Below the pieces are notes generated by a model. It was given only the letters and a program-made list of their open reading frames with translations. It did no database searches and was not told the origin of the DNA. A DNA stretch of 64,000 nucleotides from Candidatus Omnitrophota bacterium (GTDB lineage Bacteria > Omnitrophota > Gorgyraeia > Gygaellales > Profunditerraquicolaceae): NCBI GenBank assembly GCA_043798795.1, contig JAZDOJ010000007.1:28259-92258 (forward strand), written 5' to 3'. How positions within the stretch are numbered: position 1 is the stretch's first letter; each line of letters starts with the position of its first letter. Positions 6,903 through 40,617 of the stretch are shown piece by piece. The translations under genes and the position numbers were made by a program.

Positions 6903-7307
6903 GTGGAGGAAAACGTAAAATCAAGGCTTATTTTGATTCTGGGGGTCATGACGGTTATATTCTTTATCAGCACGGTGAGCTCTTGCGGTAATGCCTACAG
7001 GAATAAAATGGGGCAGGTTAAAGAGACGTTACAGCGCAAGGCTCTGGAGGAAAAACTGAATTTGATATCTCAGGAGAAAGTGAACCAAGAAGAGAATCTG
7101 GCTAGCCTGCAGAAACAGCTGGATGACGAGAAGGCCGGTCATGAGGCGACTCAAAAAGCACTGGTACAGGAGCAGCTCGTTAATCAAAGTTTGAAGGAAG
7201 AGCTGGTTAAAGTTACTAAACTGAAAGAGGCCCTTGAAGAGGATTTGAAAGAAGCCTTGGTTCAAGGCAAAGGGTCTTCGGCCACGAGTACAAAACCAAG
7301 GCAATAG
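6903..7307 (+). CDS. Membrane-anchored or lipoprotein coiled-coil protein; function unknown
   Basis: Hydrophobic N-terminus ending in a VSSC lipobox-like motif, followed by about 100 aa of heptad-rich E/K/L/Q sequence; start codon uncertain (GTG 6903 or ATG 6948). Confidence 0.5.
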   Translation: MEENVKSRLILILGVMTVIFFISTVSSCGNAYRNKMGQVKETLQRKALEEKLNLISQEKVNQEENLASLQKQLDDEKAGHEATQKALVQEQLVNQSLKEELVKVTKLKEALEEDLKEALVQGKGSSATSTKPRQ

Positions 7308-8429: not shown

Positions 8430-10010
8430 ATGTTAAAAGGATATCTTTGTCTCGTCTTGCACGGCCACCTTCCGTTTGTACGTCATCCGGAACACGAAAA
8501 CTTTCTGGAAGAGGATTGGCTTTACGAAGCGATCACGGAGACCTACATTCCGTTGATCTCTTGTTTCGAGAGATTATGCGAAGAGAAAGTGGATTTCCGT
8601 CTCACCATGACGTTAAGCCCTACGCTGATCTCTATGTTGAACGATCCGCTTCTCCAGGAACGCTACCTGAAACATATCAACAGGCTTATTGAATTAGCGC
8701 ATAAAGAGATCGAGAGGACTTCCTGGCAGGCCGCCTTTCAGAAGTTGGCGATTATGTATTTAAATCAGTTCTGTAAGGCGCGGGATACCTTTGAAAGATA
8801 TAACCGTCAATTAGTCAAGGCATTCAAAAATTTTCAGGATCTGGGAAAAATAGAGATTGTGACATGTGCCGCGACGCACGGTTACTTTCCTCTTATGGAT
8901 GTATGCAGGGCGTCTGTCAGGGCCCAGGTCAAGGTAGCTGTCAGCCAGTATGAATCTGTGTTTGGCAGGAAGCCACGGGGGATATGGCTGCCGGAATGCG
9001 GGTATCATCCCGGCCATGATGAGATTTTAAAGGAGGCCGGGATACGCTATTTCTTCAGTGATGCGCATGGGGTTTTACACGGCACCCCCAGGCCCAAATA
9101 CGGTGTATTTGCTCCGGTCTATTGCAAGGGTACGGGTGTCGCCTGTTTTGGTAGAGATCTGGAATCATCGAAACAGGTATGGAGTTCTATCGAAGGGTAT
9201 CCGGGTGATTATAATTACCGGGAATTTTATCGCGATATCGGTTTTGATCTGGAGTTCGATTACATCAGGCCCTACATCCATCCTGACGGTGTCCGGATCA
9301 ATACGGGGATCAAATATTACCGCATCACCGGCAACCAGAGTCCTAAGGAACCCTATGTCCCGGAATGGGCCACAGAGACGGCGGCTTCTCATGCCGGAAA
9401 TTTCATGTTCAATCGCCAAAAGCAGGCCGCGTACCTTTACGACTTTATGCAAAAACCGCCGATGTTCGTCTCTCCTTATGATGCCGAGCTGTTCGGCCAT
9501 TGGTGGTACGAAGGCCCCCAGTGGCTGGATTTTTTGATGAGAAAGATCGTCTTTGACCAGGATGAGTTGCGTCTTATCACTCCTTCGGAATATTTGGCCC
9601 AGAACCCGCGCCACCAGGTGATCACGCCCTCTTTATCCAGCTGGGGGTGGAAGGGATATAGCGAAATGTGGCTTCAGGGTTCCAATGACTGGATTTATCG
9701 GCATCTGCATGTGGCCTCTGACAGAATGACGGAATTAGCGAAAAGCTTCCCTCAGACGGATGGTTTGCTCAGAAGGGCCTTGAACCAGGCCTTGTGTGAG
9801 CTGCTTCTTGCCCAGAGTTCTGATTGGGCGTTCATCATGGGCACAGGAACGCATACGAGTTATGCGGTACGCCGCACCAAAGAACATCTCTTGAGATTCA
9901 GCCGCCTTTACGAAGATATCAAATCCAGCAGCATAGACCCAAACTGGTTATCCGATATCGAATACAAAGATAACCTATTTCCTAAAATAGATTACCGGGT
10001 CCATCAATAA
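8430..10010 (+). CDS. Glycoside hydrolase family 57 1,4-alpha-glucan branching enzyme
   Basis: LCLVLHGHLPFVRHPE N-terminal GH57 motif; 526 aa; Glu/Asp catalytic regions of GH57 present. Confidence 0.8.
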   Translation: MLKGYLCLVLHGHLPFVRHPEHENFLEEDWLYEAITETYIPLISCFERLCEEKVDFRLTMTLSPTLISMLNDPLLQERYLKHINRLIELAHKEIERTSWQAAFQKLAIMYLNQFCKARDTFERYNRQLVKAFKNFQDLGKIEIVTCAATHGYFPLMDVCRASVRAQVKVAVSQYESVFGRKPRGIWLPECGYHPGHDEILKEAGIRYFFSDAHGVLHGTPRPKYGVFAPVYCKGTGVACFGRDLESSKQVWSSIEGYPGDYNYREFYRDIGFDLEFDYIRPYIHPDGVRINTGIKYYRITGNQSPKEPYVPEWATETAASHAGNFMFNRQKQAAYLYDFMQKPPMFVSPYDAELFGHWWYEGPQWLDFLMRKIVFDQDELRLITPSEYLAQNPRHQVITPSLSSWGWKGYSEMWLQGSNDWIYRHLHVASDRMTELAKSFPQTDGLLRRALNQALCELLLAQSSDWAFIMGTGTHTSYAVRRTKEHLLRFSRLYEDIKSSSIDPNWLSDIEYKDNLFPKIDYRVHQ

Positions 10011-29821: not shown

Positions 29822-30194
29822 AAGAAGCGTATGCCTGGGGCAAAATGGGGAAGATTTAGCTGTTGGCTTCCTGAAAGAAAACGGTTATAAGATTCTGCAT
29901 AGAAATTTTAAAACCAGGTTGGGAGAGATAGATATCATCGGCATGGATCAGGATACACTTTGTTTCATCGAAGTCAAAACTAGGAACTCTCTCAGGTGCG
30001 GCGAGCCGCAAGAGGCTATTTCTTCTTTTAAGCAGAGGCAGATGTCCAAAGCAGCGCTCCTGTTTCTTAAAGGACATCATCTTCTGGATGCTAAAGCCAG
30101 GTTCGATGTGGTTTCCGTTATCTGTTTAGATAAAACGCCAACATTCGATTTGATCAAGAATGCTTTTGAACTGGAGGCAAGCTATGTTATCTGA
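29814..30194 (+). CDS. yraN: YraN-family (UPF0102) endonuclease
   Basis: GEDLAVGFLKENGYKILHRNFKTRLGEIDIIGMDQDTLCFIEVKTR signature. Confidence 0.85.
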   Translation: MSKRSVCLGQNGEDLAVGFLKENGYKILHRNFKTRLGEIDIIGMDQDTLCFIEVKTRNSLRCGEPQEAISSFKQRQMSKAALLFLKGHHLLDAKARFDVVSVICLDKTPTFDLIKNAFELEASYVI

Positions 30195-31878
30195 TATCAA
30201 AATTGCCCAGAAAGCAAAAATAGTCCCGATAGAGAATATCGCCAAGAAATTAAAAATCGATAAACGATTCCTTGTGCCTTACGGCCGGCATATGGCCAAG
30301 ATCGATTTGGGTATTCTGGATAAAATTAAGAATAGGAAATCAGGAAAATATGTTTTGGTAACCGCTATAACACCCACGCCTTTAGGAGAAGGCAAGACCG
30401 TCACGACCATAGGTCTCTCCATGGCTTTGAATCGATTAGGTCGGTTAACCTCAACCTGCATCAGGCAGCCGTCGCTGGGGCCTGTCTTTGGTATAAAAGG
30501 AGGGGCAGCTGGCGGTGGGTATTCCCAGGTTTTGCCCATGGAGAATTTTAATCTTCATTTTACCGGAGACGTGCATGCGGTTGGCCTGGCGCATAATCTG
30601 GCTGCTGCTTTTTTGGATAATTCTCTCTTCAAAGGAAACAAGCTCGGGATCGATCCCGAGCAGATAACCTGGAGACGGGTGGTAGATGTCAGCGACCGCT
30701 CTTTAAGGAATGTCAAGATCGGTTTGGGCTCAAAAGACGACGGGGTTCCCCGGGACAGCGGCTTTGATATAACGGTGGCTTCCGAAATCATGGCTATTTT
30801 GGCCTTGAGTTCCGGTTTAACGGACTTGCGTAAACGTCTGGGGCAAATCGTCGTGGCCCATACCCAGGACGGCAGACTCGTCACCTGTGAAGACCTGCAA
30901 GTGGCCGGGGCCATGGCTGTTCTCATGAAAGAGGCCATAAAACCTAATTTGATTCAGACGATCGAAAATACCCCTTGTTTTGTGCACGCCGGCCCTTTTG
31001 CGAATATCGCCCATGGCAATAACTCCATATTAGAGGACCGCATAGCTCTGAGGTTATCCGAGTATGTGGTGACAGAAGCCGGCTTTGGAGCGGATTGCGG
31101 GGCAGAGAAATTCTTTGATATAAAATGTCGCGCAAGCGGCCTGGCGCCTCATGCCGTAGCCATGGTCTGTTCTGTCAGGGCTTTAAAAGCGCATAGCGGC
31201 CGATTTAAGGTTGTCGCGGGTAAACCTTTAGATCCAGCTTTAACGCAAGAGAACTTAGATGCTATAGAGGAAGGAGTTTGTAACCTGCAGAAACAGATTG
31301 AGAATGTTTCTCTCTTTGGTGTACCGGTGGTGGTTGCCGTCAATCGATTTACCTCTGATACAAAAAGAGAAATAGAATTTGTAAGGAAAAAAGCCCTGGA
31401 GTTCGGAGCCTTTGACTGTTGTGTCAGCGAAGTATGGGCCAAGGGTTCCTCAGGAGGTCTGGAGCTGGCTAAGAGCATCATGGCCGCAGCCAAAGAGAAG
31501 AGCCGTTTTAAATTTCTATATCCGTTAGATATTTCCATAAAGGAGAAGATCGAAACCATCGCGACAAAAATATACGGGGCCAAGAATGTCGAATATGCAG
31601 GCCTGGCTGAGGAGAAAATTAAGGTTTACACAGAGCAGGGTTATGATAGACTACCTATCTGTATGGCCAAAACACACCTTTCTTTATCGCATGACCCTCA
31701 CCTTAAAGGAAGGCCTCGAGATTTTACGCTTCCCATCAGAGATATCCGGGCATCCATCGGTGCAGGATTTTTATATCCTCTTTGTGGGGAAATGAAAACC
31801 ATGCCGGCGCTGCCCAGCCACCCTGCAGGAGAGAAGATTGATATCGACAAGAGTGGGAATATTGTGGGTTTATCATGA
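30184..31878 (+). CDS. fhs: Formate--tetrahydrofolate ligase
   Basis: MLSDIKIAQKAKI start, PTPLGEGKTVTTIGL P-loop, 560+ aa typical of FTHFS. Confidence 0.95.
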   Translation: MLSDIKIAQKAKIVPIENIAKKLKIDKRFLVPYGRHMAKIDLGILDKIKNRKSGKYVLVTAITPTPLGEGKTVTTIGLSMALNRLGRLTSTCIRQPSLGPVFGIKGGAAGGGYSQVLPMENFNLHFTGDVHAVGLAHNLAAAFLDNSLFKGNKLGIDPEQITWRRVVDVSDRSLRNVKIGLGSKDDGVPRDSGFDITVASEIMAILALSSGLTDLRKRLGQIVVAHTQDGRLVTCEDLQVAGAMAVLMKEAIKPNLIQTIENTPCFVHAGPFANIAHGNNSILEDRIALRLSEYVVTEAGFGADCGAEKFFDIKCRASGLAPHAVAMVCSVRALKAHSGRFKVVAGKPLDPALTQENLDAIEEGVCNLQKQIENVSLFGVPVVVAVNRFTSDTKREIEFVRKKALEFGAFDCCVSEVWAKGSSGGLELAKSIMAAAKEKSRFKFLYPLDISIKEKIETIATKIYGAKNVEYAGLAEEKIKVYTEQGYDRLPICMAKTHLSLSHDPHLKGRPRDFTLPIRDIRASIGAGFLYPLCGEMKTMPALPSHPAGEKIDIDKSGNIVGLS

Positions 31879-32441
31879 TCATGTATAAAGACGGTTCCAT
31901 CAGGAAATATTTAGACGATTTGGCTGCTAAGCTAAGCGCTCCCGGCGGAGGTTCTGCGGCGGCGTTAACGGCAGGGTTGGGAGCCAGTCTTATCAGTATG
32001 GTGGTGAACTTTACTTTAGGTAAACCCAAGTACGCTCCCTTTGAGAGGGATTTAAAAAAGATCCTAAAAAAATCGGAAGAGCTGCGTGAAAAATTCTTAG
32101 ACCTCGTTGATTTAGACGTAGTCGCCTATAAATCCAAGAACATAAGAGACGCCCTGGATATCCCCTTTATGGTGTGCCGCCTTTGTTTTGAAGCCATAAA
32201 GTTATGCCCGGGCCTCATTAAGAAAGGCAATATTTACTTGATAAGCGACGTCATGGTGGCTGGGATTCTACTGGAATCGGCTTTTGCTTCGGCATGTGCC
32301 AACGTCGAGATAAACCTGAAATCATTAGATGATAAGTCCTTAACCAAATCCGTAAGAAAAGAATTAGAGAAGAAAGCCAGATGGATGAAAAAGATCCGAA
32401 GAGACACGGAGGTTAAAGTTGGCAAAATTATTAGAGGGTAA
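31875..32441 (+). CDS. fchA: Methenyltetrahydrofolate cyclohydrolase (FTCD C-terminal, cyclodeaminase-family domain)
   Basis: LSAPGGGSAAALTAGLGASL motif typical of the FTCD_C / FchA family; ATGA overlap with fhs. Confidence 0.8.
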   Translation: MIMYKDGSIRKYLDDLAAKLSAPGGGSAAALTAGLGASLISMVVNFTLGKPKYAPFERDLKKILKKSEELREKFLDLVDLDVVAYKSKNIRDALDIPFMVCRLCFEAIKLCPGLIKKGNIYLISDVMVAGILLESAFASACANVEINLKSLDDKSLTKSVRKELEKKARWMKKIRRDTEVKVGKIIRG

Positions 32442-33270
32442 GCCGTTAGCGGATCAGATCAAAGAGAAGATGAAAGAGGAGGTTGCTGGTTTAAGCAATA
32501 AGCCGGTCCTGGCGAGTATCATGGTGGGAGAGAATGCAGGGGCAGCTAGCTATGTAAGATCGCAAGCTAAAGCAGCAGAAAACTTAGGGATTGTTTATCA
32601 ATTGCATACATTAAGCGCTGATACGGCGGAAGAGACCCTCATTGAATTTATTCAAAAATTAAATTCTGATAAATCTATACACGGCATTATCGTTCAGATG
32701 CCCTTACCTGTTTCTATTGATTACAAAAAGATAAGCCAATTCATCCTTCCTGAAAAGGATATCGAAGGGATGCATCCGGCGAATATGGGCAAGATTGTTT
32801 TCGGCAAAGCCGGACTCCTGCCCTGTACGCCCCAGGCGGTGATGGAATTGCTGAATGTAAGCGGGGTCGATCTTTACGGTAAAGAGGTGGTTATCGTAGG
32901 ACACAGCGAGATAGTCGGCAAACCATTAGCCCTGCTCTTATTGGAGAAATTGGCCACGGTGACCGTATGCCACATCGGCACAAGCCAGGCAGGGAAATTA
33001 GAGGAGCATGTCCGAAAGGCCGAAGTCTTGGTCGTCGCCGTAGGCAAGGCAGGCCTTATCAGGGGAGAATGGATTAAAGAGGGTGCGGTGGTCATCGATG
33101 TAGGGATCAACCGCGTCGGCGATAAAATCGTAGGGGATGTGGAGTTCGAAGGTGCGCAAATGCGCGCCTCTTGGATCACCCCTGTACCCGGCGGCGTCGG
33201 ACCTCTGACCGTGATCATGCTGATGCGCAATTGCGTTGAAGCCGCCAAGGAGCAAAAAGCGACCAGATGA
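32419..33270 (+). CDS. folD: Bifunctional 5,10-methylene-THF dehydrogenase / methenyl-THF cyclohydrolase
   Basis: 283 aa; GKPLADQIKEK N-terminus, VVIVGHSEIVGKPLALLL NAD(P)-binding motif, PVPGGVGPLT C-terminus; TTG start. Confidence 0.95.
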   Translation: MAKLLEGKPLADQIKEKMKEEVAGLSNKPVLASIMVGENAGAASYVRSQAKAAENLGIVYQLHTLSADTAEETLIEFIQKLNSDKSIHGIIVQMPLPVSIDYKKISQFILPEKDIEGMHPANMGKIVFGKAGLLPCTPQAVMELLNVSGVDLYGKEVVIVGHSEIVGKPLALLLLEKLATVTVCHIGTSQAGKLEEHVRKAEVLVVAVGKAGLIRGEWIKEGAVVIDVGINRVGDKIVGDVEFEGAQMRASWITPVPGGVGPLTVIMLMRNCVEAAKEQKATR

Positions 33271-33890
33271 AGAAAATATTTAAGGATTTAGGGTTAGATT
33301 TTATGTTCATGCGCCGCAAACCCATCGTTGAGTATGGTTTTCTGGAAAGCGGTTACGGTTTCTTCCTTTTTTATAATCACACCCAACTGGATTTAAGGAT
33401 GCTGATCCAGAAGTTTCCGGAGATCATCGAAGGCAGGCATCTGCTCGTCACCTCCATATCCTCGGGAAAGATCGAAAAGGAAACGTTTGATAACTACGTT
33501 GCCAAAGGAGTTTCTTGCGAATACGCGCAGGGCAATCTTATCGTCGCCCCGGAACATACAAAGGATTTCATCCATTTCCTGTTTTCTCGAGGGCCGGGTG
33601 GCAGCACCATCTATTTTCTTCATCACAGGCCTCATGCCGCGGATATGGAAAACAAAACAATTTACGGGATCCCGGCTTTGCCTGTCAGCATTAAAATATT
33701 CAAGGCGCAAAGAATCGACAAGCCCTTGCTGGATATATTGCTGAGAGAAATGGACAGCATGGGCGTCTCTTTTTATTATGATAATAATTGGATGGAGGCT
33801 ATCTGTGCCATGAGGCGGAGCCACCTGTTTGAAGAAATAAAAGTCTATTTTCATTACAACTGTCACCTTAGAGAGATTCATTTCACTTAA
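33267..33890 (+). CDS. Uncharacterised 207-aa cytoplasmic protein translationally coupled between folD and metF
   Basis: No recognisable motif; start overlaps the folD stop (ATGA) and its stop overlaps the metF start (TAATG), so it is part of the C1 operon. Confidence 0.6.
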   Translation: MKKIFKDLGLDFMFMRRKPIVEYGFLESGYGFFLFYNHTQLDLRMLIQKFPEIIEGRHLLVTSISSGKIEKETFDNYVAKGVSCEYAQGNLIVAPEHTKDFIHFLFSRGPGGSTIYFLHHRPHAADMENKTIYGIPALPVSIKIFKAQRIDKPLLDILLREMDSMGVSFYYDNNWMEAICAMRRSHLFEEIKVYFHYNCHLREIHFT

Positions 33891-34759
33891 TGACGTTCAG
33901 GGAAAAAATCCTAGCGGGTCAATTTTTACTTACTTCCGAAATCGGGCCACCGAAGGGGATTGATACAGGCCGGATTCTGGAAGACGCTGAACTCATCCGT
34001 TCAAGGGTCGATGCGATCAATGTCACGGACCTTCAGAGTTCTGTGATGCGGCTGGGGTCCCTTGCGGTTTGCAGTCTTTTAAAGCAAAAAGGCTTTGAGC
34101 CGATATTTCAGGTGACCTGCCGCGACAGGAACCGTTTAGCCCTCCAGTCCGATATTCTTTCCGCAGCGAGTCTAGGGATAGAGAACCTTCTGATTTTAAC
34201 CGGAGACCACCCGGCCTTAGGGGACCATCCGGAGGCAAAACCCGTATTTGATCTGGATTCCGTTCAACTTTTGCAGGTGGTGCAGAGGTTGCAGGAGGGT
34301 TTTGATATGAAAGGAAACCCGTTAGAGGGTCCATCCCCGAAATTCTTGGCAGGGGCCGTGGTCAATCCCGGAGCAGATCCTTTAGAGCCTCAGATTATCA
34401 AGATGGAGCAAAAAATTCAGGCCGGTGCCCAGTTTTTCCAAACCCAGGCCATTTATGACGTGAAGATTTTTGAGAATTTCTTAAGCAAGGTCAAGCATTT
34501 AAAGGTCCCGATATTAGGGGGGATCGTTTTATTGAAATCTGCGGGGATGGCTAGATACATGAACAAGAATGTGGCAGGGGTGTCTGTCCCTGAGCATTTG
34601 ATCAAGGAAATGGAAGAGACGAAAGATAAGTCAGGACAGTCTGTCGCGATTGCGGCCCGCCTCATCAAAGAACTTAAACCCATGTGTCAGGGGGTTCACA
34701 TCATGCCCATTGGCTGGGATAAGAAAGTTCCGCTCGTGCTGGATGCCGCAGGATTATAA
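33890..34759 (+). CDS. metF: 5,10-methylenetetrahydrofolate reductase (acetogen-type MetF)
   Basis: MTFREKILAGQFLLTSEIGPPKG N-terminus typical of MTHFR; 289 aa. Confidence 0.9.
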   Translation: MTFREKILAGQFLLTSEIGPPKGIDTGRILEDAELIRSRVDAINVTDLQSSVMRLGSLAVCSLLKQKGFEPIFQVTCRDRNRLALQSDILSAASLGIENLLILTGDHPALGDHPEAKPVFDLDSVQLLQVVQRLQEGFDMKGNPLEGPSPKFLAGAVVNPGADPLEPQIIKMEQKIQAGAQFFQTQAIYDVKIFENFLSKVKHLKVPILGGIVLLKSAGMARYMNKNVAGVSVPEHLIKEMEETKDKSGQSVAIAARLIKELKPMCQGVHIMPIGWDKKVPLVLDAAGL

Positions 34760-34775: not shown

Positions 34776-36683
34776 ATGTCAAATATCGAGCAGAAATCAA
34801 TAGATTTAGCGACTCTGGAAGTTTTAAAAAAAGCCCAGGAGGAAAGCATCAAGACGACGTGGGATCGTCTGGAAGCGCAGCAGCCGCAGTGCGGATTCGG
34901 ACAGCTGGGCGTTTGCTGCACGGTCTGTAGCATGGGGCCTTGCCGCATTGACCCTTTTGGCGAGGGGGCTCAGGTCGGCGTGTGCGGGGCCAATGCCGAT
35001 ACCATTGCCGCAAGAAACCTGGCGCGTAAGATCGCTGTCGGTGCTTCAGCGCATTCAGACCACGGCCGGGATGTGGCGCATACCCTTTCTTTGTTATCTG
35101 AGGGGCACGCGCATGATTACGATATAACCGATATCACAAAATTCAAGAGTTTGGCCGAGGAGTTCCAAATTGACGTCAATAAACCTAAAGAGGAAATTCT
35201 CAAAGAGCTTTCCCAAAAATTGCTGCAGGAATTCGGAAAGCAGGAAGGAGAGTTGACCTTTATAAAACGGGCTCCCAAGAAGCGCCAGCAGATCTGGAAG
35301 AAATTGGGCATCACGCCTCGTGGCATTGACAGAGAAATCGTCGAGTTATTGCATACGACACATATGGGCGTGGATAACGATTATAAGAATCTTATGCTCA
35401 CAGGGATGCGTTGCGCTTTATCCGACGGTTGGGGAGGTTCCATGGTTGCCACGGACGTTCAGGATGTCATCTTAGGCAGTCCGCAACCCATAAGAGGCAA
35501 GGTCAATCTGGGCGTATTAAAAGAAGACTATGTCAATATCGTGGTGCATGGTCACGAACCGATTTTATCTGAGATGGCTGTTAAAGTCAGCCAGGATCCG
35601 GAATTGTTAAAGTTAGCCAAAGGCCTGGGTGCCGAAGGGATCAATTTGGCAGGTATCTGTTGCACGGCGAATGAGGTGCTGATGCGTCATGGCATTTCTG
35701 TGGTCGGTAACTTCTTGCAGCAGGAATTAGCGATTATTACGGGTGCGGTTGAACTGATGATGGTGGATGTGCAGTGTATCATGCCGGCCTTGCAGGAAAC
35801 GTCAGCCTGTTTTCACACGAAACTGGTCACCACGAGTCCCAAGGCGCGTTTTCCCGGAGTCACCCACATCGAATTTGAATCAAAAAGCGCTTATGAGGTG
35901 GCCAAACAGATTATCAAGATGGGTGTCGAGAATTTTGCCAACCGCAATAAAGCAAGAGTGAATATCCCAAAACAGGAGATGGATCTGGTGGCGGGTTTCA
36001 CCAAGGAGATCATCTTCCAGATTTTAGGGGGAAGGTACAGGGCAACCTACAAGCCGTTAAATGAAGCGATTATTTCCGGCAGGCTGCGCGGTTTAGCAGG
36101 GGTGGTGGGGTGCAATAATCCCAAACAGACGCACGATTATTTTCATACGGAGCTGGTAAAAGAACTGATTAAGAATGATGTCCTGGTTTTACAGACAGGC
36201 TGTGCTGCGATTGCCTGCGCAAAACAAGGTTTACTCATCCCGGAAGCAGCCAAAGAATACGCCGGGAAAGGCTTACAGGAAATATGCGAAGCCGTAGGAA
36301 TCCCGCCTGTGCTGCACCTTGGCTCTTGCGTGGATAATTCCCGGATTTTAACCGCAGCCTCATACATTATTCAGGAAGGCGGCCTGGGAGAAGATTTATC
36401 AGATATCCCTGCAGCAGGATGCGCTCCGGAATGGATGTCCGAGAAGGCCATCACCATCGGTTTCTATTTCATGGCCTCAGGAGTTTACACGATCTTTGGA
36501 GCCAGTCCCTTTGCTACTCTGGGCAGCAAAAATTTAACGGATTATCTGACCAAAGAGATAGAAGGGGTGGTGGGCGCAAGATTCGAATTCTGCGATGACC
36601 CTCTGGAGATGGCCAAGCTTATGATCGCGCATATTGACAAAAAACGCCAAGCGTTGAAATTGAAACCTGTGATGTACGCGTAA
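34776..36683 (+). CDS. cooS: Anaerobic Ni-dependent carbon monoxide dehydrogenase catalytic subunit (CooS/AcsA)
   Basis: CGFGQLGVCCTVCSMGPCRI B/D-cluster cysteine motif; 635 aa; C-cluster ligand regions present. Confidence 0.95.
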   Translation: MSNIEQKSIDLATLEVLKKAQEESIKTTWDRLEAQQPQCGFGQLGVCCTVCSMGPCRIDPFGEGAQVGVCGANADTIAARNLARKIAVGASAHSDHGRDVAHTLSLLSEGHAHDYDITDITKFKSLAEEFQIDVNKPKEEILKELSQKLLQEFGKQEGELTFIKRAPKKRQQIWKKLGITPRGIDREIVELLHTTHMGVDNDYKNLMLTGMRCALSDGWGGSMVATDVQDVILGSPQPIRGKVNLGVLKEDYVNIVVHGHEPILSEMAVKVSQDPELLKLAKGLGAEGINLAGICCTANEVLMRHGISVVGNFLQQELAIITGAVELMMVDVQCIMPALQETSACFHTKLVTTSPKARFPGVTHIEFESKSAYEVAKQIIKMGVENFANRNKARVNIPKQEMDLVAGFTKEIIFQILGGRYRATYKPLNEAIISGRLRGLAGVVGCNNPKQTHDYFHTELVKELIKNDVLVLQTGCAAIACAKQGLLIPEAAKEYAGKGLQEICEAVGIPPVLHLGSCVDNSRILTAASYIIQEGGLGEDLSDIPAAGCAPEWMSEKAITIGFYFMASGVYTIFGASPFATLGSKNLTDYLTKEIEGVVGARFEFCDDPLEMAKLMIAHIDKKRQALKLKPVMYA

Positions 36684-36690
36684 GGGGCCC

Positions 36691-37146
36691 ATGAAAAATC
36701 TCTATTACGATGTCAAGAAATGCTTAGGATGCAAATCCTGCGAGATAGCCTGTAGCCTCGCTCATTCCGTGATACAGGACCTGTTCAAGGCCGTCAAGGA
36801 AAGCAAATTGACTTTACCCAGAAAGAAAGTCGCAACGTCCAAGGGTAAGAATTATCCTGTGAGCTGCCGTCATTGCCAGGAGCCTAAGTGCGTGGATGCC
36901 TGTATGGCCTGCGCTTTAAGTTTTGATCAGGAGAAGGGCCTTGTCTTACACGACGAGGAGCGTTGCGTGGGTTGCTGGATGTGCGTGATGGTCTGTCCCT
37001 ATGGCGCCATTCGGCCGAGCCTTAAGGATAAAATTCCTATACGCTGCGATAAATGCAAGGATAAGGACGAACCGGCTTGCGTCAAGGCCTGCCCGACGGG
37101 CGCCATCATCTGGCAGGAGGCCCAAGTTTTCAAAGGAGTCAAATGA
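36691..37146 (+). CDS. cooF: CooF-like 4Fe-4S ferredoxin
   Basis: Multiple CxxCxxCxxxCP ferredoxin motifs in 151 aa. Confidence 0.85.
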   Translation: MKNLYYDVKKCLGCKSCEIACSLAHSVIQDLFKAVKESKLTLPRKKVATSKGKNYPVSCRHCQEPKCVDACMACALSFDQEKGLVLHDEERCVGCWMCVMVCPYGAIRPSLKDKIPIRCDKCKDKDEPACVKACPTGAIIWQEAQVFKGVK

Positions 37147-38408
37147 AGCATTTTATTATTATCGGTAATTCTGCGGCGGGGATCGCGGCGGCGGAGCAGA
37201 TCCGCAAAATCGACGCGCAATCTCAGCTGACCATGATCTCCGATGAGGAATATCCTTCTTACTGCCGCTGTCTGATTTCGTATTATTTGGCCGCAGAGGT
37301 TAAAGAAGAGAAGATGTTCTATCGGGGGAAGAGTTTTTATAAGGAAAACAATATCGAACTCCTCCTGGGGAAGAAAGTGGCGAGGGTGGATGCGAAGAAG
37401 AATCGCGTTATCCTCGAAGATAAGACGGCCTTGGGCTTTGACGCCCTTCTCATCGCAACAGGCTCAAGCCCTAAATTTCCGCAGACCGCCGGGATCAAAA
37501 AGACAGGCGTATTCGGTTTCCGGACCCTTAAGAACGCCAAAGATATTGAAGGCCTGCTTCCGGTCACTAAGTCCGCCTGCGTGTTGGGGGGAGGCCTTGT
37601 GGGGCTTAAAGCCGCGTATGCGCTCAAAAAAAGAAACGTGGATGTGAAGGTCATCGTGAAGTCCAAGCAGGTCTTATCGCAGATGCTTGATTTTGAAGCA
37701 GCTTCTTTCGTCCTGAAGAGATTAGAAGAGAACGGGATTGAGGTTCTTTTGGGACAGGACGCCGAGGAGATTATCGGTAACGGAGACATCAAAGCCGTCA
37801 AGCTCGATTCAGGAAAAGCCCTGGGTTGTTCTCTGATAGTCGTCGGCAAGGGGGTGGCCCCGAATATCGACTTAGTCAAGGAGAGCGATATAAAATTTAA
37901 CGAAGGGATCCTCTCGGATGAGTTTTTGAGGAGCAATATCCCCTCTGTTTATGCGGCAGGAGACGTTTGCGAAAGCTTTGACCTGACGCTGGGCGAGCAC
38001 ACCGTTAATGCCCTCTGGCCGATAGCCGTTGAACAGGGCAGGATCGCCGGGCAGAATATGGCTGGAGAGAAAATAAAATATGACGGGTCCCTGGGTATCA
38101 ATTCTATCGAATTCTTTGGTTTGCCGGTTATCTCTTTAGGCATATACAAAAAGAAGGAAGGAGAGGCTGGCTTCGAGGAGATGAAGACAGCAGATGAAAA
38201 GAACAATCTTTATAAAAGAGTGCTCTTAAAAAATAACATCATCGTGGGCACCCTCCTGGTGGGTGATATAAAAAATAGCGGTATTTTCTTAAGACTGATG
38301 AGAGAACGTCTCGATGTCAGGCCCGTTAAAGAGAGATTGCTCAGTGAAGGCTTTGGATATCCGGATATCATTGACTTAGTGAAAGAGAAGGAGAAGATTT
38401 ATGTCTAA
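37143..38408 (+). CDS. FAD-dependent pyridine nucleotide-disulfide oxidoreductase (CODH-associated NAD(P)H oxidoreductase-like)
   Basis: IIIGNSAAGIAAAEQI FAD-binding motif and a second GGGLVGLKAA NAD-binding motif; ATGA overlap with cooF; this protein family is commonly encoded next to cooS-cooF. Confidence 0.8.
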   Translation: MKHFIIIGNSAAGIAAAEQIRKIDAQSQLTMISDEEYPSYCRCLISYYLAAEVKEEKMFYRGKSFYKENNIELLLGKKVARVDAKKNRVILEDKTALGFDALLIATGSSPKFPQTAGIKKTGVFGFRTLKNAKDIEGLLPVTKSACVLGGGLVGLKAAYALKKRNVDVKVIVKSKQVLSQMLDFEAASFVLKRLEENGIEVLLGQDAEEIIGNGDIKAVKLDSGKALGCSLIVVGKGVAPNIDLVKESDIKFNEGILSDEFLRSNIPSVYAAGDVCESFDLTLGEHTVNALWPIAVEQGRIAGQNMAGEKIKYDGSLGINSIEFFGLPVISLGIYKKKEGEAGFEEMKTADEKNNLYKRVLLKNNIIVGTLLVGDIKNSGIFLRLMRERLDVRPVKERLLSEGFGYPDIIDLVKEKEKIYV

Positions 38409-40581
38409 GGAAGTTGCTGCTTCGGTTATCAGAGGTGCTAAAGATATTTTTCAGCAGGCTTCCCAATTTTTGGATAAGGCCATTAAAGAGAAGGGGGCTG
38501 AGTGCAAGATCGGGTTTCCGGAAACAGCCTTTTATCTGCCGATGGCCAATGCCTTATTAGGCGCTAAGGTTGAAACCATTAAAGACGTTTCTCCTATATT
38601 AGAACATGCCCGCACGCTGCTCCCTGCGGTGCCTACGGATAAGGTCTGGCTTCCTTATTTAGGGGACGCTTTGAATGCCGGAATGTCCACGTTATTCTGC
38701 GAAGAAATCATTCTGGCCCTGCGTTACCTTTACGGACAAGAGCCCCAGAAAGACTGTAACGGTTTCTTTACCGATACGATCATGCGTTCTCTGGGTATCC
38801 AGTTAGTCGATGGACGCATGCCTGGATTTGCCGCCATCCTCGGGGCAGCCCCTGATAACAAAATCGCGGTTGAAATCGTGCGGCAGCTGCAGGAAAGAAA
38901 TATCCTTATTTTTGTCGGCTCCTCGGTTAAAGGCAGGTCCATCATCGATCAACTGATCGAAGAGAATGTGCAGATGGGCTGGGACAACTATATTGTCCCT
39001 TACGGCCGAGATACGATATCGGCGAATTTCCCTTTGAACTGGGCGATCCGTTCAGCCCTGACCTTCGGCGGGCTCAAGCCTGGTCAGGCCGAGAAGTGCC
39101 TCATGTACACCAAGGAAAGGGTTTTTGCCTTTGGTCTGGTTTTAGGGGAACTCGATGACGCTAAGTATGCGACCGGTGCCGGCGCTATCAATATGGGATT
39201 TCCTATCATTGCGGACACCGATATCCCGGAAATAAAGCCTTCCGGCATCACCACCTATGAGGCCCTGGTCAAAGAATTAGACTATAAGAAAATCGTCGCG
39301 CGCTGTATCGAGGTCAGGGGTGTCAAGGTCAGGATCGCCCATATCCCCATCCCTGTTTCTTATGCGGCCGCTTTTGAGGGGGAACGGGTGAGGAAGGAAA
39401 ATTTGTATGTGGAGTTCGGAAGCAAGGCAAGCCTTTCCTTCGAATATTTGACGACAAAAAAGACGGAAGAGGTGGAGGACGCAAAAGTCGAGCTCATCGG
39501 CCCTGACATCGACGCGCTTGAGCCGGGCAAGAAATCTTTGCCCCTGGCTATCATCGTCGAGGTTGCCGGACGGAAGATGCAGAAGGATTTTGAGCCGATC
39601 CTGGAACGCCAGATCCACCGTTTTGTTAATTATGCCATGGGCCTGATGCACGTGGGTCAGCGCGATATGAACTGGATCAGGATCAGCCAGGATGCCTTTC
39701 AGAAAGGGTTTCGGTTGAAGCATCTGGGCGTGATTCTTCACGCCATGCTTCATCAGGAATATAGCGCTATCGTCGATAAAATACAGGTGAAGATCTATAC
39801 CCTGCTTCAAGACGTGGAAAAACTTATTGAGCAGGCCAAGAAAACTTACGACGAGCGCGACGAAAGGATCAGCGGCATGACGGATGAGAGCGTGGATACG
39901 TTTTATTCATGTTTATTATGTCAATCCTTTGCGCCGAATCATGTTTGCATAGTTACGCCCGAACGCTTAGGGTTATGCGGGGCTTATTCCTGGTTGGATG
40001 CCAAGGCCTCTTTCGAGATCACACCGACTGGACCCAACCAACCCGTCCTCAAAGGCGCCGTGACGGACGAAAGATTGGGCCAATGGAAGAACGTGAACGA
40101 CTTTTTGTTACAGAAATCCAACAAGAGTATTGAAAAGGTGAGTATGTATTCTCTGATGGATTCTCCTCAGTCTTCCTGCGGTTGTTTTGAATGCATTGTT
40201 GCCATCATCCCGGAAGCCAACGGTGTGATGGTGGTCCATCGGGACCATTCGGGGATGACTCCCTCGGGGATGACTTTTACGACCCTCGCGGGTTCCGTGG
40301 GAGGGGGTGTTCAGACACCCGGATTCTTAGGCGTGGGGAAATTGTACATACTCAGCAAAAAGTTTATCTCTGCGGAAGGGGGCCTCAAGCGCCTTGTCTG
40401 GATGCCTAAGGAACTAAAGGAACTCCTAGGAGAAAAACTTAAAGCGCGCTGCCAAGAGATAGGAATTCCTGATTTTGTGGAGAAAATTGCTGATGAAACC
40501 CAGGCGACCAGCTCTCAGGAGTTAGTCCAGTTCTTAACCCAGGTCAAACATCCTGCTCTGGATTTGGAACCCATGATATGA
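38401..40581 (+). CDS. acsB: Acetyl-CoA synthase catalytic subunit (bacterial AcsB, CODH/ACS alpha)
   Basis: 726 aa; A-cluster ligands CLLCQSFAPNHVCIVTPERLGLC (Cx2Cx8Cx9C) and Ni-site SCGCFEC; start overlaps the upstream gene by 8 nt. Confidence 0.9.
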   Translation: MSKEVAASVIRGAKDIFQQASQFLDKAIKEKGAECKIGFPETAFYLPMANALLGAKVETIKDVSPILEHARTLLPAVPTDKVWLPYLGDALNAGMSTLFCEEIILALRYLYGQEPQKDCNGFFTDTIMRSLGIQLVDGRMPGFAAILGAAPDNKIAVEIVRQLQERNILIFVGSSVKGRSIIDQLIEENVQMGWDNYIVPYGRDTISANFPLNWAIRSALTFGGLKPGQAEKCLMYTKERVFAFGLVLGELDDAKYATGAGAINMGFPIIADTDIPEIKPSGITTYEALVKELDYKKIVARCIEVRGVKVRIAHIPIPVSYAAAFEGERVRKENLYVEFGSKASLSFEYLTTKKTEEVEDAKVELIGPDIDALEPGKKSLPLAIIVEVAGRKMQKDFEPILERQIHRFVNYAMGLMHVGQRDMNWIRISQDAFQKGFRLKHLGVILHAMLHQEYSAIVDKIQVKIYTLLQDVEKLIEQAKKTYDERDERISGMTDESVDTFYSCLLCQSFAPNHVCIVTPERLGLCGAYSWLDAKASFEITPTGPNQPVLKGAVTDERLGQWKNVNDFLLQKSNKSIEKVSMYSLMDSPQSSCGCFECIVAIIPEANGVMVVHRDHSGMTPSGMTFTTLAGSVGGGVQTPGFLGVGKLYILSKKFISAEGGLKRLVWMPKELKELLGEKLKARCQEIGIPDFVEKIADETQATSSQELVQFLTQVKHPALDLEPMI

Positions 40582-40589
40582 TTATTTAC

Positions 40590-40617
40590 TTGACGGGCTA
40601 AGTTAAAAGTGTATAAT
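40590..40617 (+). promoter_or_regulatory. Sigma70-like promoter TTGACG - 16 bp - TATAAT immediately after acsB
   Basis: Perfect -10 hexamer and 5/6 -35 read directly; implies the downstream TPR gene starts at the ATG at 40633, not the track's GTG at 40609. Confidence 0.55.

What the first reader, a model, noticed from the sequence alone, without database searches (positions are those of the whole stretch)
34776..40581. Hybrid CODH/ACS architecture: a monofunctional-type cooS-cooF-FAD/NAD oxidoreductase module fused in one operon with acsB
The cooS-cooF-FNOR trio is the classic arrangement of monofunctional CODHs that pass CO-derived electrons to NAD(P)+. Here the same trio sits between metF and acsB, all with overlapping codons. 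That implies a single CODH serves both the electron-transfer role and the ACS partner role, with an NAD(P)-linked route feeding the methyl branch.
Basis: partly seen in the sequence, partly recalled or inferred. Interest (0 to 1): 0.5.

Follow-up and report, generated by a model that had tools for sequence, protein, structure and literature searches.

The report
CODH/ACS operon with NAD(P) module
In this uncultured Omnitrophota bacterium, the CO dehydrogenase that partners acetyl-CoA synthase is encoded with an iron-sulfur "wire" protein and an NAD(P)-binding flavoprotein; this layout is common across the phylum and suggests, untested, that the carbon-fixing enzyme exchanges electrons with NAD(P)H rather than only with ferredoxin.

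Summary
On the + strand lie cooS (34776-36683), a CooF-type polyferredoxin (36691-37146), an FAD/NAD(P) oxidoreductase (true start 37143, to 38408) and full-length acsB (38401-40581), directly after fhs-fchA-folD-metF.

It is not peculiar to this window. The same order occurs in 22 of 48 evaluable species-level genomes that carry close AcsB relatives, mostly Omnitrophota. Inoue et al. 2019 already list it, without comment, in a supplementary table.

In many relatives the cluster continues into acsC-RACo-cooC-acsD-acsE. In the window's type those genes form a separate locus with no second cooS or acsB, so this CooS is the ACS partner.

CooS is clade E, a clade that includes ACS-bound CODHs. The CooF/FNOR pair is homologous to AorA/AorC, the NAD-linked electron module of a tungsten aldehyde oxidoreductase. 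Other lineages carry a NuoE/NuoF (Bfu-type) module in the same slot. Lineages that lost cooS keep an FNOR fragment fused to AcsB.

Best reading: a CODH/ACS whose CODH is wired to NAD(P)(H). The physical complex, the direction of electron flow and the "single CODH" claim remain unproven. It is a new variant of known kinds, of moderate interest.

The parts
30160..31878 (+). fhs, formate-tetrahydrofolate ligase (methyl branch)
   Evidence: PF01268, 848 bits; syntenic in relatives
31875..32441 (+). fchA-like cyclodeaminase/cyclohydrolase (FTCD_C)
   Evidence: PF04961, 152 bits
32419..33270 (+). folD, methylene-THF dehydrogenase/cyclohydrolase
   Evidence: PF02882 plus PF00763
33267..33890 (+). 207-aa ORF of unknown function at the position where some relatives carry metV. 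It is not MetV.
   Evidence: No Pfam or NCBIfam hit. No similarity to MetV of L086-L088. Conserved only in L001.
33890..34759 (+). metF, small acetogen-type methylene-THF reductase, without a MetV partner in the window
   Evidence: PF02219, 120 bits. 71-74% identical to MetF of L087/L088/L090, which sit next to MetV. No MetV hit in the window.
34776..36683 (+). cooS, Ni-CODH catalytic subunit, clade E / structural group E-1, with all cluster ligands
   Evidence: TIGR01702, 669 bits. Cys at 39/47 (D cluster), 48/51/56/70 (B cluster) and 295/334/446/476/518 (C cluster). 92% identical to KPK97464.1, which Inoue et al. classify as E-1. PDB hits.
36691..37146 (+). cooF-type polyferredoxin, about four [4Fe-4S] clusters; proposed wire from the CooS D cluster
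   Evidence: Fer4_11 and related families. 17 Cys. PDB homologues HycB4, WorS and AorA. NCBIfam PadI-like.
37143..38408 (+). FNOR, an FAD- and NAD(P)-binding oxidoreductase (COG1251 type, AorC/PadH-like); start ATG 37143 overlaps the cooF stop
   Evidence: PF07992, PF00070 and PF18267. Full-length match to 8c0z_E, E 1e-52. PadH-like, 288 bits. GGGLVG...VKVIVKSKQ motif with no acidic residue at the end of beta2.
38401..40581 (+). acsB, acetyl-CoA synthase (A-cluster subunit) with the N-terminal CODH-binding domain; overlaps FNOR by 8 nt
   Evidence: NF040764, 1038 bits. PF18537, PF03598 and PF19436. C504xxC507, C516 and C593-G-C595 motifs. PDB ACS hits of about 730 bits.
40590..40617 (+). sigma-70-like TTGACG-16-TATAAT just after the acsB stop; possible start of the next transcription unit (TPR-polA). 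Consensus match only.
   Evidence: 11 of 12 matches, but the total number of promoter-like sites in the region is at chance level.

Best explanation
The four genes encode the carbonyl-branch enzyme of the Wood-Ljungdahl pathway in an unusual wiring.

- CooS is the CODH partner of AcsB. CO made or consumed at the C cluster is shared with the A cluster, as in Moorella- or Clostridium-type CODH/ACS.
- Instead of relying only on free ferredoxin, the exposed D cluster of the CooS dimer is served by a CooF polyferredoxin.
- CooF passes electrons to or from an AorC-like FAD protein that binds NAD(P)(H), probably NADP(H).

The net effect is that acetyl-CoA synthesis (CO2 + methyl group + CoA) or cleavage exchanges its two electrons with the pyridine-nucleotide pool.

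CFeSP (AcsCD), its activator RACo, CooC and the methyltransferase AcsE are supplied from a second locus.

Shown here: gene identities, intact cofactor ligands, conserved order, homology of CooF/FNOR to a solved NAD-linked module, and the absence of another CODH or AcsB beside acsCDE in a genome of the same type.

Inferred: the physical CooS-AcsB and CooS-CooF-FNOR contacts, the nucleotide specificity, and the direction of electron flow. I favour NAD(P)H to CO2 during fermentative acetogenesis, with the system reversible.
For: 1. Tight operon. The cooF/FNOR and FNOR/acsB reading frames overlap.

2. Conserved order. The order metF-cooS-cooF-FNOR-acsB is kept in 22 of 48 evaluable GTDB species loci. 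It is also kept in 8 of the 9 contexts looked up from AcsC relatives of L028; the ninth, L091, is classical cooS-acsB. These include the closed genomes CP070837.1 and CP070780.1, where the cluster runs on into acsC-RACo-cooC-acsD-acsE.

3. No second CODH or AcsB beside acsCDE. In assembly MHGW01, which is of the window's type (L008 has partial cooS-cooF-FNOR-acsB-TPR-polA), acsC sits on another contig with no cooS or acsB in the 10 kb upstream. That contig (L175) ends inside RACo. Sister contigs carrying the identical AcsC (L172-L174, L176, L177) show acsC-RACo-cooC-acsD-acsE with no cooS or acsB within 10 kb on either side. Further loci of this kind are L098 and L121.

4. Clade. CooS falls in clade E. 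ACS-bound CODHs (6ytt_B and 9fzy_B, about 654 bits) score as well as monofunctional ones. All ligands are present.

5. Homology to a solved NAD-linked module. FNOR matches AorC (8c0z_E) over its full length at E 1e-52, and CooF matches AorA (8c0z_C) and WorS (9mqx_E). In AorABC these two subunits link a low-potential catalytic subunit to NAD (PMC12318220). NCBIfam also gives PadI/PadH, the corresponding subunits of NADH-dependent phenylglyoxylate dehydrogenase.

6. Precedent for the trio. In Geobacter, cell extracts reduce NADP+ with CO (PMC4703632).

7. Same slot, different NAD module. Other lineages have NuoE/NuoF/FeS (Bfu-type) between cooF and acsB.

8. Fusions. Lineages that lost cooS and cooF keep an FNOR fragment fused in frame to AcsB in 9 species. 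The extension averages 64% identity against 78% for the AcsB body. This points to physical association of FNOR and AcsB.

9. Nucleotide motif. All 49 full-length FNORs aligned from these cooS/acsB loci have K/R-S rather than an acidic residue at the end of beta2.
Against: - There is no biochemical or structural data for any member of this cluster type.
- Electron flow from NAD(P)H (about -320 mV) to CO2/CO (-520 mV) is uphill unless it is pulled by acetyl-CoA formation. This is my own thermodynamic reasoning, not a result.
- CooS and AcsB NJ trees are only moderately congruent (Spearman 0.59). CooS groups by the presence of an adjacent cooC, so CooS has been swapped at least once.
- The related MAG SM23_72 has a third, stand-alone CooS.
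- In cooS-less lineages the FNOR remnant has a degenerate GxGxxG motif, so it may be only a structural relic.
- Gene adjacency does not prove a complex.
- The window's own acsCDE locus and its cooS paralogue count could not be inspected.
Confidence: 0.55

Rival explanations
1. Two separate enzymes are merely co-transcribed. A monofunctional CooS-CooF-FNOR CO:NAD(P)+ oxidoreductase scavenges or makes free CO. AcsB works without a stable CODH partner and takes CO from solution.
For: The trio exists on its own in Geobacter and Clostridium (PMC4703632, PMC6344411). Many Omnitrophota keep acsB with no cooS at all (PMC10066038), so AcsB can be retained without an adjacent CODH. CooS has been exchanged independently of AcsB.
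Against: AcsB keeps its CODH-binding N-terminal domain. No other CODH sits next to any acs gene in genomes of the same type. The order has been conserved over long divergence (AcsB down to about 65% identity) with overlapping reading frames. FNOR-AcsB fusions exist.
Confidence: 0.2
2. CooF and FNOR mainly feed MetF. They replace the missing MetV or RnfC2-type partner, so the NAD(P)H link belongs to methylene-THF reduction rather than to CODH.
For: metF lies directly upstream. The window-type loci lack MetV, although their MetF is 71-74% identical to MetV-associated MetF. FNOR-like genes persist next to metF after cooS and cooF are lost.
Against: In cooS-less loci CooF is lost together with CooS, not kept with MetF, and the FNOR decays or loses its NAD motif. 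In loci that have an E. coli-type MetF (L045, L082, L085) or MetV-MetF (L086-L090), the cooS-cooF-FNOR-acsB block is unchanged.
Confidence: 0.1
3. FNOR is an NAD(P)H oxidase-type protective or activating device. It would use CO- or NAD(P)H-derived electrons to remove O2 and peroxide around the oxygen-sensitive CODH/ACS, or to reductively activate the A cluster.
For: An oxidative-stress role was proposed for CODH-IV-FNOR-rubrerythrin and for the C. ljungdahlii cluster (PMC6344411, PMC4703632). FNOR also matches NADH oxidases and CoA-disulfide reductases in the PDB. The fusion to AcsB is compatible with an activating role.
Against: There is no rubrerythrin or peroxidase gene in the operon. The best full-length homologue is AorC, not an oxidase. 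The interchange with a Bfu-type NADH module in the same slot points to bulk electron transfer.
Confidence: 0.1

Closest known systems
Bacterial bifunctional CODH/ACS (Moorella thermoacetica AcsA/AcsB; Clostridium autoethanogenum and Carboxydothermus CODH/ACS)
   Same: AcsB is full length with all three domains and the A-cluster ligands, scoring about 704-730 bits to the solved ACS chains. CooS is a complete Ni-CODH in the same clade as the C. autoethanogenum ACS-bound CODH. Relatives carry acsC, RACo, cooC, acsD and acsE downstream.
   Different: Two extra genes, cooF and FNOR, lie between the CODH gene and acsB. In the window the CFeSP and methyltransferase genes are at another locus. No cooC lies next to cooS. 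The classical enzymes use free ferredoxin.
Monofunctional CooS-CooF-FNOR clusters (Geobacter sulfurreducens GSU2098-2095; Clostridium ljungdahlii/autoethanogenum; C. hydrogenoformans CODH-IV)
   Same: The same three-gene module in the same order, with a COG1251-type FAD/NAD(P) protein. CO-dependent NADP+ reduction has been measured in Geobacter extracts (PMC4703632).
   Different: Here the module is overlapped by acsB and embedded in the Wood-Ljungdahl operon. There is no RcoM, CooA or Rrf2 regulator and no rubrerythrin. The CooF is the COG1142 type that Inoue et al. associate with ECH clusters, rather than COG0437 (PMC6344411).
AorABC tungsten aldehyde oxidoreductase of Aromatoleum aromaticum (PDB 8C0Z) and PadEFGHI phenylglyoxylate dehydrogenase
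   Same: The FeS subunit plus FAD subunit pair is homologous: AorA/CooF 75 bits, AorC/FNOR E 1e-52 over the full length; PadI/PadH by NCBIfam. Both link a catalytic site near -500 mV to NAD.
   Different: The catalytic subunit here is a Ni-CODH, not a tungstopterin or 2-oxoacid enzyme. This is a resemblance of mechanism, not family membership.
Codh-Bfu / 'CodhABCSF' (hypothetical electron-bifurcating CODH, Schut et al. 2022; PMC9304861, PMC12318220)
   Same: CooS plus CooF is joined to an NAD-binding flavoprotein module. Related loci (L035, L036, L060, L077, L097, L160 and others) carry NuoE/NuoF/FeS in the slot that FNOR occupies here.
   Different: The window has the single-flavin FNOR, not BfuABC. 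The published Codh-Bfu examples were from Firmicutes only, and ACS adjacency was not mentioned.
Dual-use CODH proposed for Ca. Tritonobacter lacicola (Auribacterota) (PMC9324843)
   Same: One CooS/CooF is proposed to serve both an electron-transfer partner and ACS within one gene cluster.
   Different: There the partner is an Ech hydrogenase, not an NAD(P) flavoprotein.

Membership tests
Bacterial CODH/ACS | AcsB with A-cluster ligands and the N-terminal CODH-binding domain | tested here: met
   NF040764, 1038 bits against a cutoff of 800. PF18537, PF03598 and PF19436. CxxC...C and CGC motifs.
Bacterial CODH/ACS | Ni-CODH with complete B-, C- and D-cluster ligands encoded with acsB | tested here: met
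   TIGR01702, 669 bits. Cys pattern. Same operon, two genes away. The 92%-identical KPK97464.1 has all ligands canonical in Inoue's Table S1.
Bacterial CODH/ACS | CFeSP (AcsC/AcsD), AcsE and RACo present in the genome | tested here: inconclusive
   Absent from the 64-kb window. Present as a separate locus in a genome of the same type, MHGW01, and adjacent in many relatives.
Bacterial CODH/ACS | Stable CODH-ACS complex with an internal CO tunnel | not testable with these tools
   Needs purification, cryo-EM or multimer prediction.
Monofunctional CooS-CooF-FNOR module | Consecutive cooS, cooF and a COG1251-type FAD/NAD(P) oxidoreductase | tested here: met
   COG1151-COG1142-COG1251 in the 92%-identical SM23_72 locus.
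Monofunctional CooS-CooF-FNOR module | No association with ACS (the meaning of 'monofunctional') | tested here: not met
   acsB overlaps FNOR by 8 nt. The association is conserved in 22 of 48 loci.
Monofunctional CooS-CooF-FNOR module | CO-dependent NAD(P)+ reduction | not testable with these tools
   Known only from Geobacter extracts (PMC4703632).
AorABC-type FeS/FAD electron module | AorC-like FAD/NAD subunit plus AorA-like four-cluster polyferredoxin | tested here: met
   8c0z_E, E 1e-52, residues 1-408 against 1-410. 8c0z_C, 75 bits.
AorABC-type FeS/FAD electron module | Tungstopterin AOR catalytic subunit | tested here: not met
   No AOR-family gene in the window. The catalytic subunit is CooS.
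Codh-Bfu (bifurcating CODH) | BfuB/BfuC (NuoF/NuoE-like) subunits next to cooS-cooF | tested here: not met
   No tblastn hit in the window. Present only in related loci.

The most novel reading that the evidence does not exclude
CooS2, CooF, FNOR and AcsB form one supercomplex in which NADP(H) is the physiological redox partner of acetyl-CoA synthesis and cleavage. The uphill CO2/CO step would be pulled by tunnelled CO consumption at the A cluster. These fermentative acetogens could then run the carbonyl branch on NAD(P)H and keep all reduced ferredoxin for Rnf-driven energy conservation. The Bfu-type clusters in other phyla would be the confurcating version of the same idea, and the FNOR-AcsB fusions a fossil of the contact.
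Probability: 0.3. Interest if true: 0.75.

Novelty: new variant of a known kind. Interest (0 to 1): 0.5.

Why it matters
Acetogen bioenergetics assumes that the CO2-to-CO step of the Wood-Ljungdahl pathway costs reduced ferredoxin. A CODH/ACS hard-wired to NAD(P)(H) would change the energy budget of that pathway in a widespread, uncultured group: Omnitrophota and MAGs labelled Elusimicrobia and Planctomycetia.

It would also give a defined four-gene target for biochemistry. In addition, it would remove the annotation split between 'AcsA' and 'CooS/F' that leads metabolic reconstructions, such as the one in PMC10066038, to treat them as separate capacities.

If the module is only a co-transcribed CO scavenger, the finding is a cataloguing refinement.

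Tried and rejected
- **orf207 (33267-33890) as a divergent MetV.** Rejected: no similarity to MetV, it is not Cys-rich, and it has no Pfam or NCBIfam hit.
- **Exact look-up of the window's CooS contig.** Found nothing, although the identical protein MFH0826441.1 is in the protein collection. The rest of the 105,792-bp contig could therefore not be read.
- **Locating the window-type acsCDE locus.** Nine look-ups of AcsC relatives of L028 all returned clusters with acsB adjacent. It was found only after a metagenome scan and a second protein search.
- **Promoter and terminator scan.** Counts were at chance level and no operon boundary could be set.
- **Rfam and tRNA scans of the window.** Nothing found.
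- **Adam et al. 2018 (PNAS).** Could not be read, so I cannot say whether it shows this cluster type.
- **Literature searches.** No paper in the library describes cooS-cooF-FNOR-acsB as a unit. Absence from this library is not proof of absence.
- **Structure prediction.** Not run. The tool folds single chains only, the question concerns a complex, and the sequence-level PDB hits were already decisive for the folds.
- **Limits of the comparative analysis.** The trees are NJ without bootstrap, built on longest-ORF calls. Taxon names are record titles.

Full report
**What is in the window**

The window comes from a Candidatus Omnitrophota MAG. Its CooS is identical to NCBI protein MFH0826441.1, which lies on a 105,792-bp contig. 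Every long ORF in the 64 kb is on the + strand.

From 29.8 to 40.6 kb the genes run yraN, fhs, fchA, folD, an unknown 207-aa ORF, metF, cooS, cooF, FNOR and acsB. A TPR protein, polA, glgA, coaE, rho and prfA follow.

- CooS (34776-36683) passes the curated CODH model at 669 bits against a cutoff of 478. It has Cys at 39/47, 48/51/56/70 and 295/334/446/476/518, the D-, B- and C-cluster pattern.
- CooF (36691-37146) has 17 Cys in four ferredoxin-type motifs.
- The flavoprotein most plausibly starts at ATG 37143, overlapping the cooF stop as ATGA. It ends 8 nt inside acsB.
- AcsB (38401-40581) is full length, including the N-terminal CODH-binding domain and the CxxC...C / CGC A-cluster motifs.

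No acsC, acsD, acsE, RACo or cooC is present anywhere in the window.

**How common the arrangement is**

I scanned one genome per GTDB species for AcsB relatives and obtained 80 loci. I annotated them by tblastn with the window's proteins and with acsC, RACo, cooC, acsD, acsE and NuoE/F taken from two loci and confirmed by Pfam. Among the 48 loci with at least 4.5 kb upstream of acsB:

| Arrangement upstream of acsB | Loci |
|---|---|
| cooS-cooF-FNOR-acsB | 22 |
| cooS-cooF-NuoE-NuoF-FeS-acsB | 4 |
| cooS-cooF-(other)-acsB | 2 |
| classical cooS-acsB | 4 |
| no cooS, FNOR-like gene present | 10 |
| no cooS, no FNOR-like tblastn hit | 6 |

In at least four of those last six loci (L057, L059, L062, L080) the AcsB ORF nevertheless carries the fused FNOR remnant described below.

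The full synteny yraN-fhs-fchA-folD-metF-cooS-cooF-FNOR-acsB-TPR-polA-glgA-coaE-rho is shared by many Omnitrophota species whose AcsB is 70-90% identical to the window's.

The same order, written as COG numbers, appears twice for Omnitrophica WOR_2 bacterium SM23_72 in Supplementary Table 2 of Inoue et al. 2019. One of those CooS proteins, KPK97464.1, is 92% identical to ours and is classed as clade E, structural group E-1, with all ligands canonical. That paper notes only in general terms that some E-1 CODHs coexist with FNOR. Seymour et al. 2023 score 'AcsA' and 'CooS/F' as separate traits of Omnitrophota acetogens and do not mention the flavoprotein.

So the arrangement is catalogued but, in the library I could search, not discussed as a unit.

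**Is this CooS the ACS partner?**

Three lines of evidence say yes.

1. *Full clusters in relatives.* In many relatives the block continues directly into the rest of the acs genes: (fhs-fchA-folD-[metV]-metF-[cooC])-cooS-cooF-FNOR-acsB-acsC-RACo-(cooC)-acsD-acsE. This holds for L028, L031, L038, L041, L044-L046 and for 8 of the 9 AcsC contexts I looked up from AcsC relatives of L028. The ninth (L091) is classical cooS-acsB. The eight include the 1.55- and 1.43-Mb records CP070837.1 and CP070780.1.

2. *A separate acsCDE locus without CODH.* For the window's own type, where acsB is followed by TPR-polA, the remaining genes are at a second locus. A metagenome scan found acsC-RACo-cooC-acsD-acsE clusters with no acsB or cooS within 10 kb (L098, L121). 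Their AcsC belongs to a large, highly conserved Omnitrophota family. One member lies on MHGW01000006.1 (L175). That is the same assembly as L008 (MHGW01000044.1), which carries partial cooS-cooF-FNOR-acsB-TPR-polA. L175 shows gatCAB ... purE and an FmdE-domain gene upstream of acsC with no cooS or acsB, but the contig ends inside RACo. L172, a sister contig with the identical AcsC, shows the whole locus: those same upstream genes, then acsC-RACo-cooC-acsD-acsE, then dgkA. It has no CODH or AcsB within 10 kb on either side. In SM23_72 the only other CODH is a stand-alone gene among housekeeping genes.

3. *Clade.* Clade E contains ACS-bound enzymes. The CODH chains of solved CODH/ACS complexes 6ytt and 9fzy score 654 bits, the same as monofunctional CODHs 6vwy/6b6v (643-652 bits) and 6elq (630 bits). 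The Moorella-type chain 1mjg scores 494 bits.

**What CooF and FNOR are**

The flavoprotein's best solved homologue, over its whole length (E 1e-52), is chain E of 8C0Z. CooF matches chain C of the same entry, as well as WorS (9mqx_E) and HycB4. 8C0Z is annotated as an aldehyde oxidoreductase with an Fe-S subunit and a 'ferredoxin:NADH oxidoreductase-like' subunit. PMC12318220 describes it as the NAD-linked AorABC, in which AorA is the WorS/CooF homologue.

NCBIfam independently gives PadI and PadH, the corresponding subunits of NADH-dependent phenylglyoxylate dehydrogenase, though below the curated cutoffs. The pair is thus a known type of module that carries electrons between a catalytic site near -500 mV and NAD.

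For the cooS-cooF-FNOR trio itself, the only functional data I found are CO-dependent NADP+ (and weaker NAD+) reduction in Geobacter extracts (PMC4703632).

In all 49 full-length FNORs aligned from these cooS/acsB loci, the second Rossmann motif reads GGGLxGL(K/R)...V(I/V)(V/I)(K/R)S. No acidic residue sits at the end of beta2. By the usual rule this suggests NADP(H); that is an inference.

**Two further comparative observations**

First, in loci labelled Planctomycetia, Armatimonadota, Actinomycetes and unclassified, the slot between cooF and acsB holds NuoE-, NuoF- and 2Fe2S/4Fe4S-proteins. This is a Bfu-type NADH module. Some metagenome contigs place the module just upstream of cooS-acsB instead. 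Schut et al. proposed such 'Codh-Bfu' enzymes from four Firmicutes sequences and did not mention ACS (PMC9304861). Two different NAD-binding modules occupying the same position next to an ACS-linked CODH argues that the link to pyridine nucleotides is the selected trait.

Second, a sister group of Omnitrophota (AcsB about 62-66% identical) has lost cooS and cooF, matching the 'V. archaeovorus-type' pathway of PMC10066038. Across these lineages FNOR is variously:
- intact but divergent (L030);
- truncated to about 290-300 aa (L066, L074);
- fused as a 300-aa piece to AcsB (L063, a 1027-aa ORF);
- reduced to a roughly 120-aa NAD-domain remnant fused in frame to AcsB in eight species (843-865 aa).

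In those eight the ORF starts right after the metF stop, and the GxGxxG motif is degenerate. The extension averages 64% pairwise identity against 78% for the AcsB body. CooF disappears together with CooS, which ties CooF to CooS. The conserved fusion suggests that FNOR and AcsB were physical neighbours.

**Evolutionary caveat**

NJ trees of CooS and AcsB from 42 loci agree on the main groups but not in detail (Spearman 0.59). CooS sequences split according to whether a cooC gene lies next to them. For example, L020-L027 group with L045 and L085, although their AcsB groups with the window's clade. So a cooC-cooS unit has been exchanged at least once while the gene order stayed the same. The trees have no support values.

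**Mechanism proposed**

CooS2 binds AcsB laterally, as in solved CODH/ACS. The D cluster on the dimer axis stays free for CooF. This geometry is established knowledge from those structures and was not tested here. CooF's four clusters connect to the FAD of FNOR, which exchanges a hydride with NAD(P).

Direction is open. From my own knowledge of the published potentials, CO2/CO is about -520 mV. The overall couple (CO2 + methyl-pterin + CoA)/acetyl-CoA is near -200 mV. NAD(P)H could therefore drive acetyl-CoA synthesis if CO never accumulates.

I rate the wired-CODH/ACS reading at 0.55. The rivals are two independent enzymes (0.2), a MetF-directed module (0.1), and a protective or activating role (0.1).

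**Comparison and verdict**

The system is a member of the bacterial CODH/ACS family on every sequence feature that could be tested. It contains the 'monofunctional' trio but fails that group's defining trait of having no ACS association. It works like, but is not, an AorABC or Codh-Bfu enzyme.

It is a new variant of known kinds. It is widespread and visible in public tables, but not analysed or tested. Interest is moderate (0.5). It would be higher if NAD(P)H-driven acetyl-CoA synthesis were demonstrated.

Noticed in passing
L081 6227-9991 (CP070837.1) and L082 6164-9991 (CP070780.1): AcsB of two closed Omnitrophota genomes is 1254 and 1275 aa long and carries an intein (PF14890 with a LAGLIDADG endonuclease) inside the C-terminal domain.
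   Followed up: no
L057 9644-12193; L059 9569-12154; L080 9608-12151; also L062, L064, L067, L071, L079; L063 8990-12073: In Omnitrophota that lack cooS and cooF, a roughly 120-aa remnant of the FNOR NAD-binding domain (300 aa in L063) is fused in frame to the AcsB N-terminus. The GxGxxG motif is degenerate. The extension is conserved at a mean of 64% identity across eight species.
   Followed up: partly
L036 6924-9998; L035, L060, L077, L097, L136, L158-L160, L163, L171: A NuoE/NuoF/2Fe2S-4Fe4S (Bfu-type) module sits between cooF and acsB, or just upstream of cooS-acsB, in MAGs labelled as several phyla. This amounts to a 'Codh-Bfu' next to ACS, whereas the published Codh-Bfu cases were from Firmicutes only (PMC9304861).
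   Followed up: partly
window 33267-33890: A 207-aa ORF is wedged between folD and metF with overlapping start and stop. It has no Pfam or NCBIfam hit and is not MetV. It is conserved only in L001. The folD-metF junction varies from about 10 bp to 3.8 kb among relatives.
   Followed up: partly
L020, L021, L026, L027 versus window, L001-L019: CooS phylogeny follows the presence of an adjacent cooC rather than the AcsB phylogeny. CooS is 57-60% identical where AcsB is 71-76% identical. This suggests a cooC-cooS cassette was replaced inside an otherwise fixed operon.
   Followed up: partly
L172-L177, about 9547-9999: A 150-aa FmdE-domain protein (PF02663) lies immediately upstream of the stand-alone acsC-RACo-cooC-acsD-acsE locus of window-type Omnitrophota.
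   Followed up: no
L088/L089 1528-2409; L090 1460-2401: A NiFe-hydrogenase small-subunit-like gene (PF01058 plus PF14720), with no large subunit beside it, sits between folD and metV-metF in some full clusters.
   Followed up: no
window 1-64000: All long ORFs are on the + strand and GC skew is positive in every 2-kb bin. The window holds no tRNA and no Rfam match.
   Followed up: no
window 1904-3649 and 6903-7307: A 581-aa ORF and a 134-aa ORF have no Pfam family at E <= 1e-5.
   Followed up: no
window 40590-40617: A near-consensus sigma-70-like site (TTGACG, 16 nt, TATAAT) lies directly after the acsB stop and before the TPR gene. The TPR gene may really start at ATG 40633 rather than GTG 40609.
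   Followed up: no
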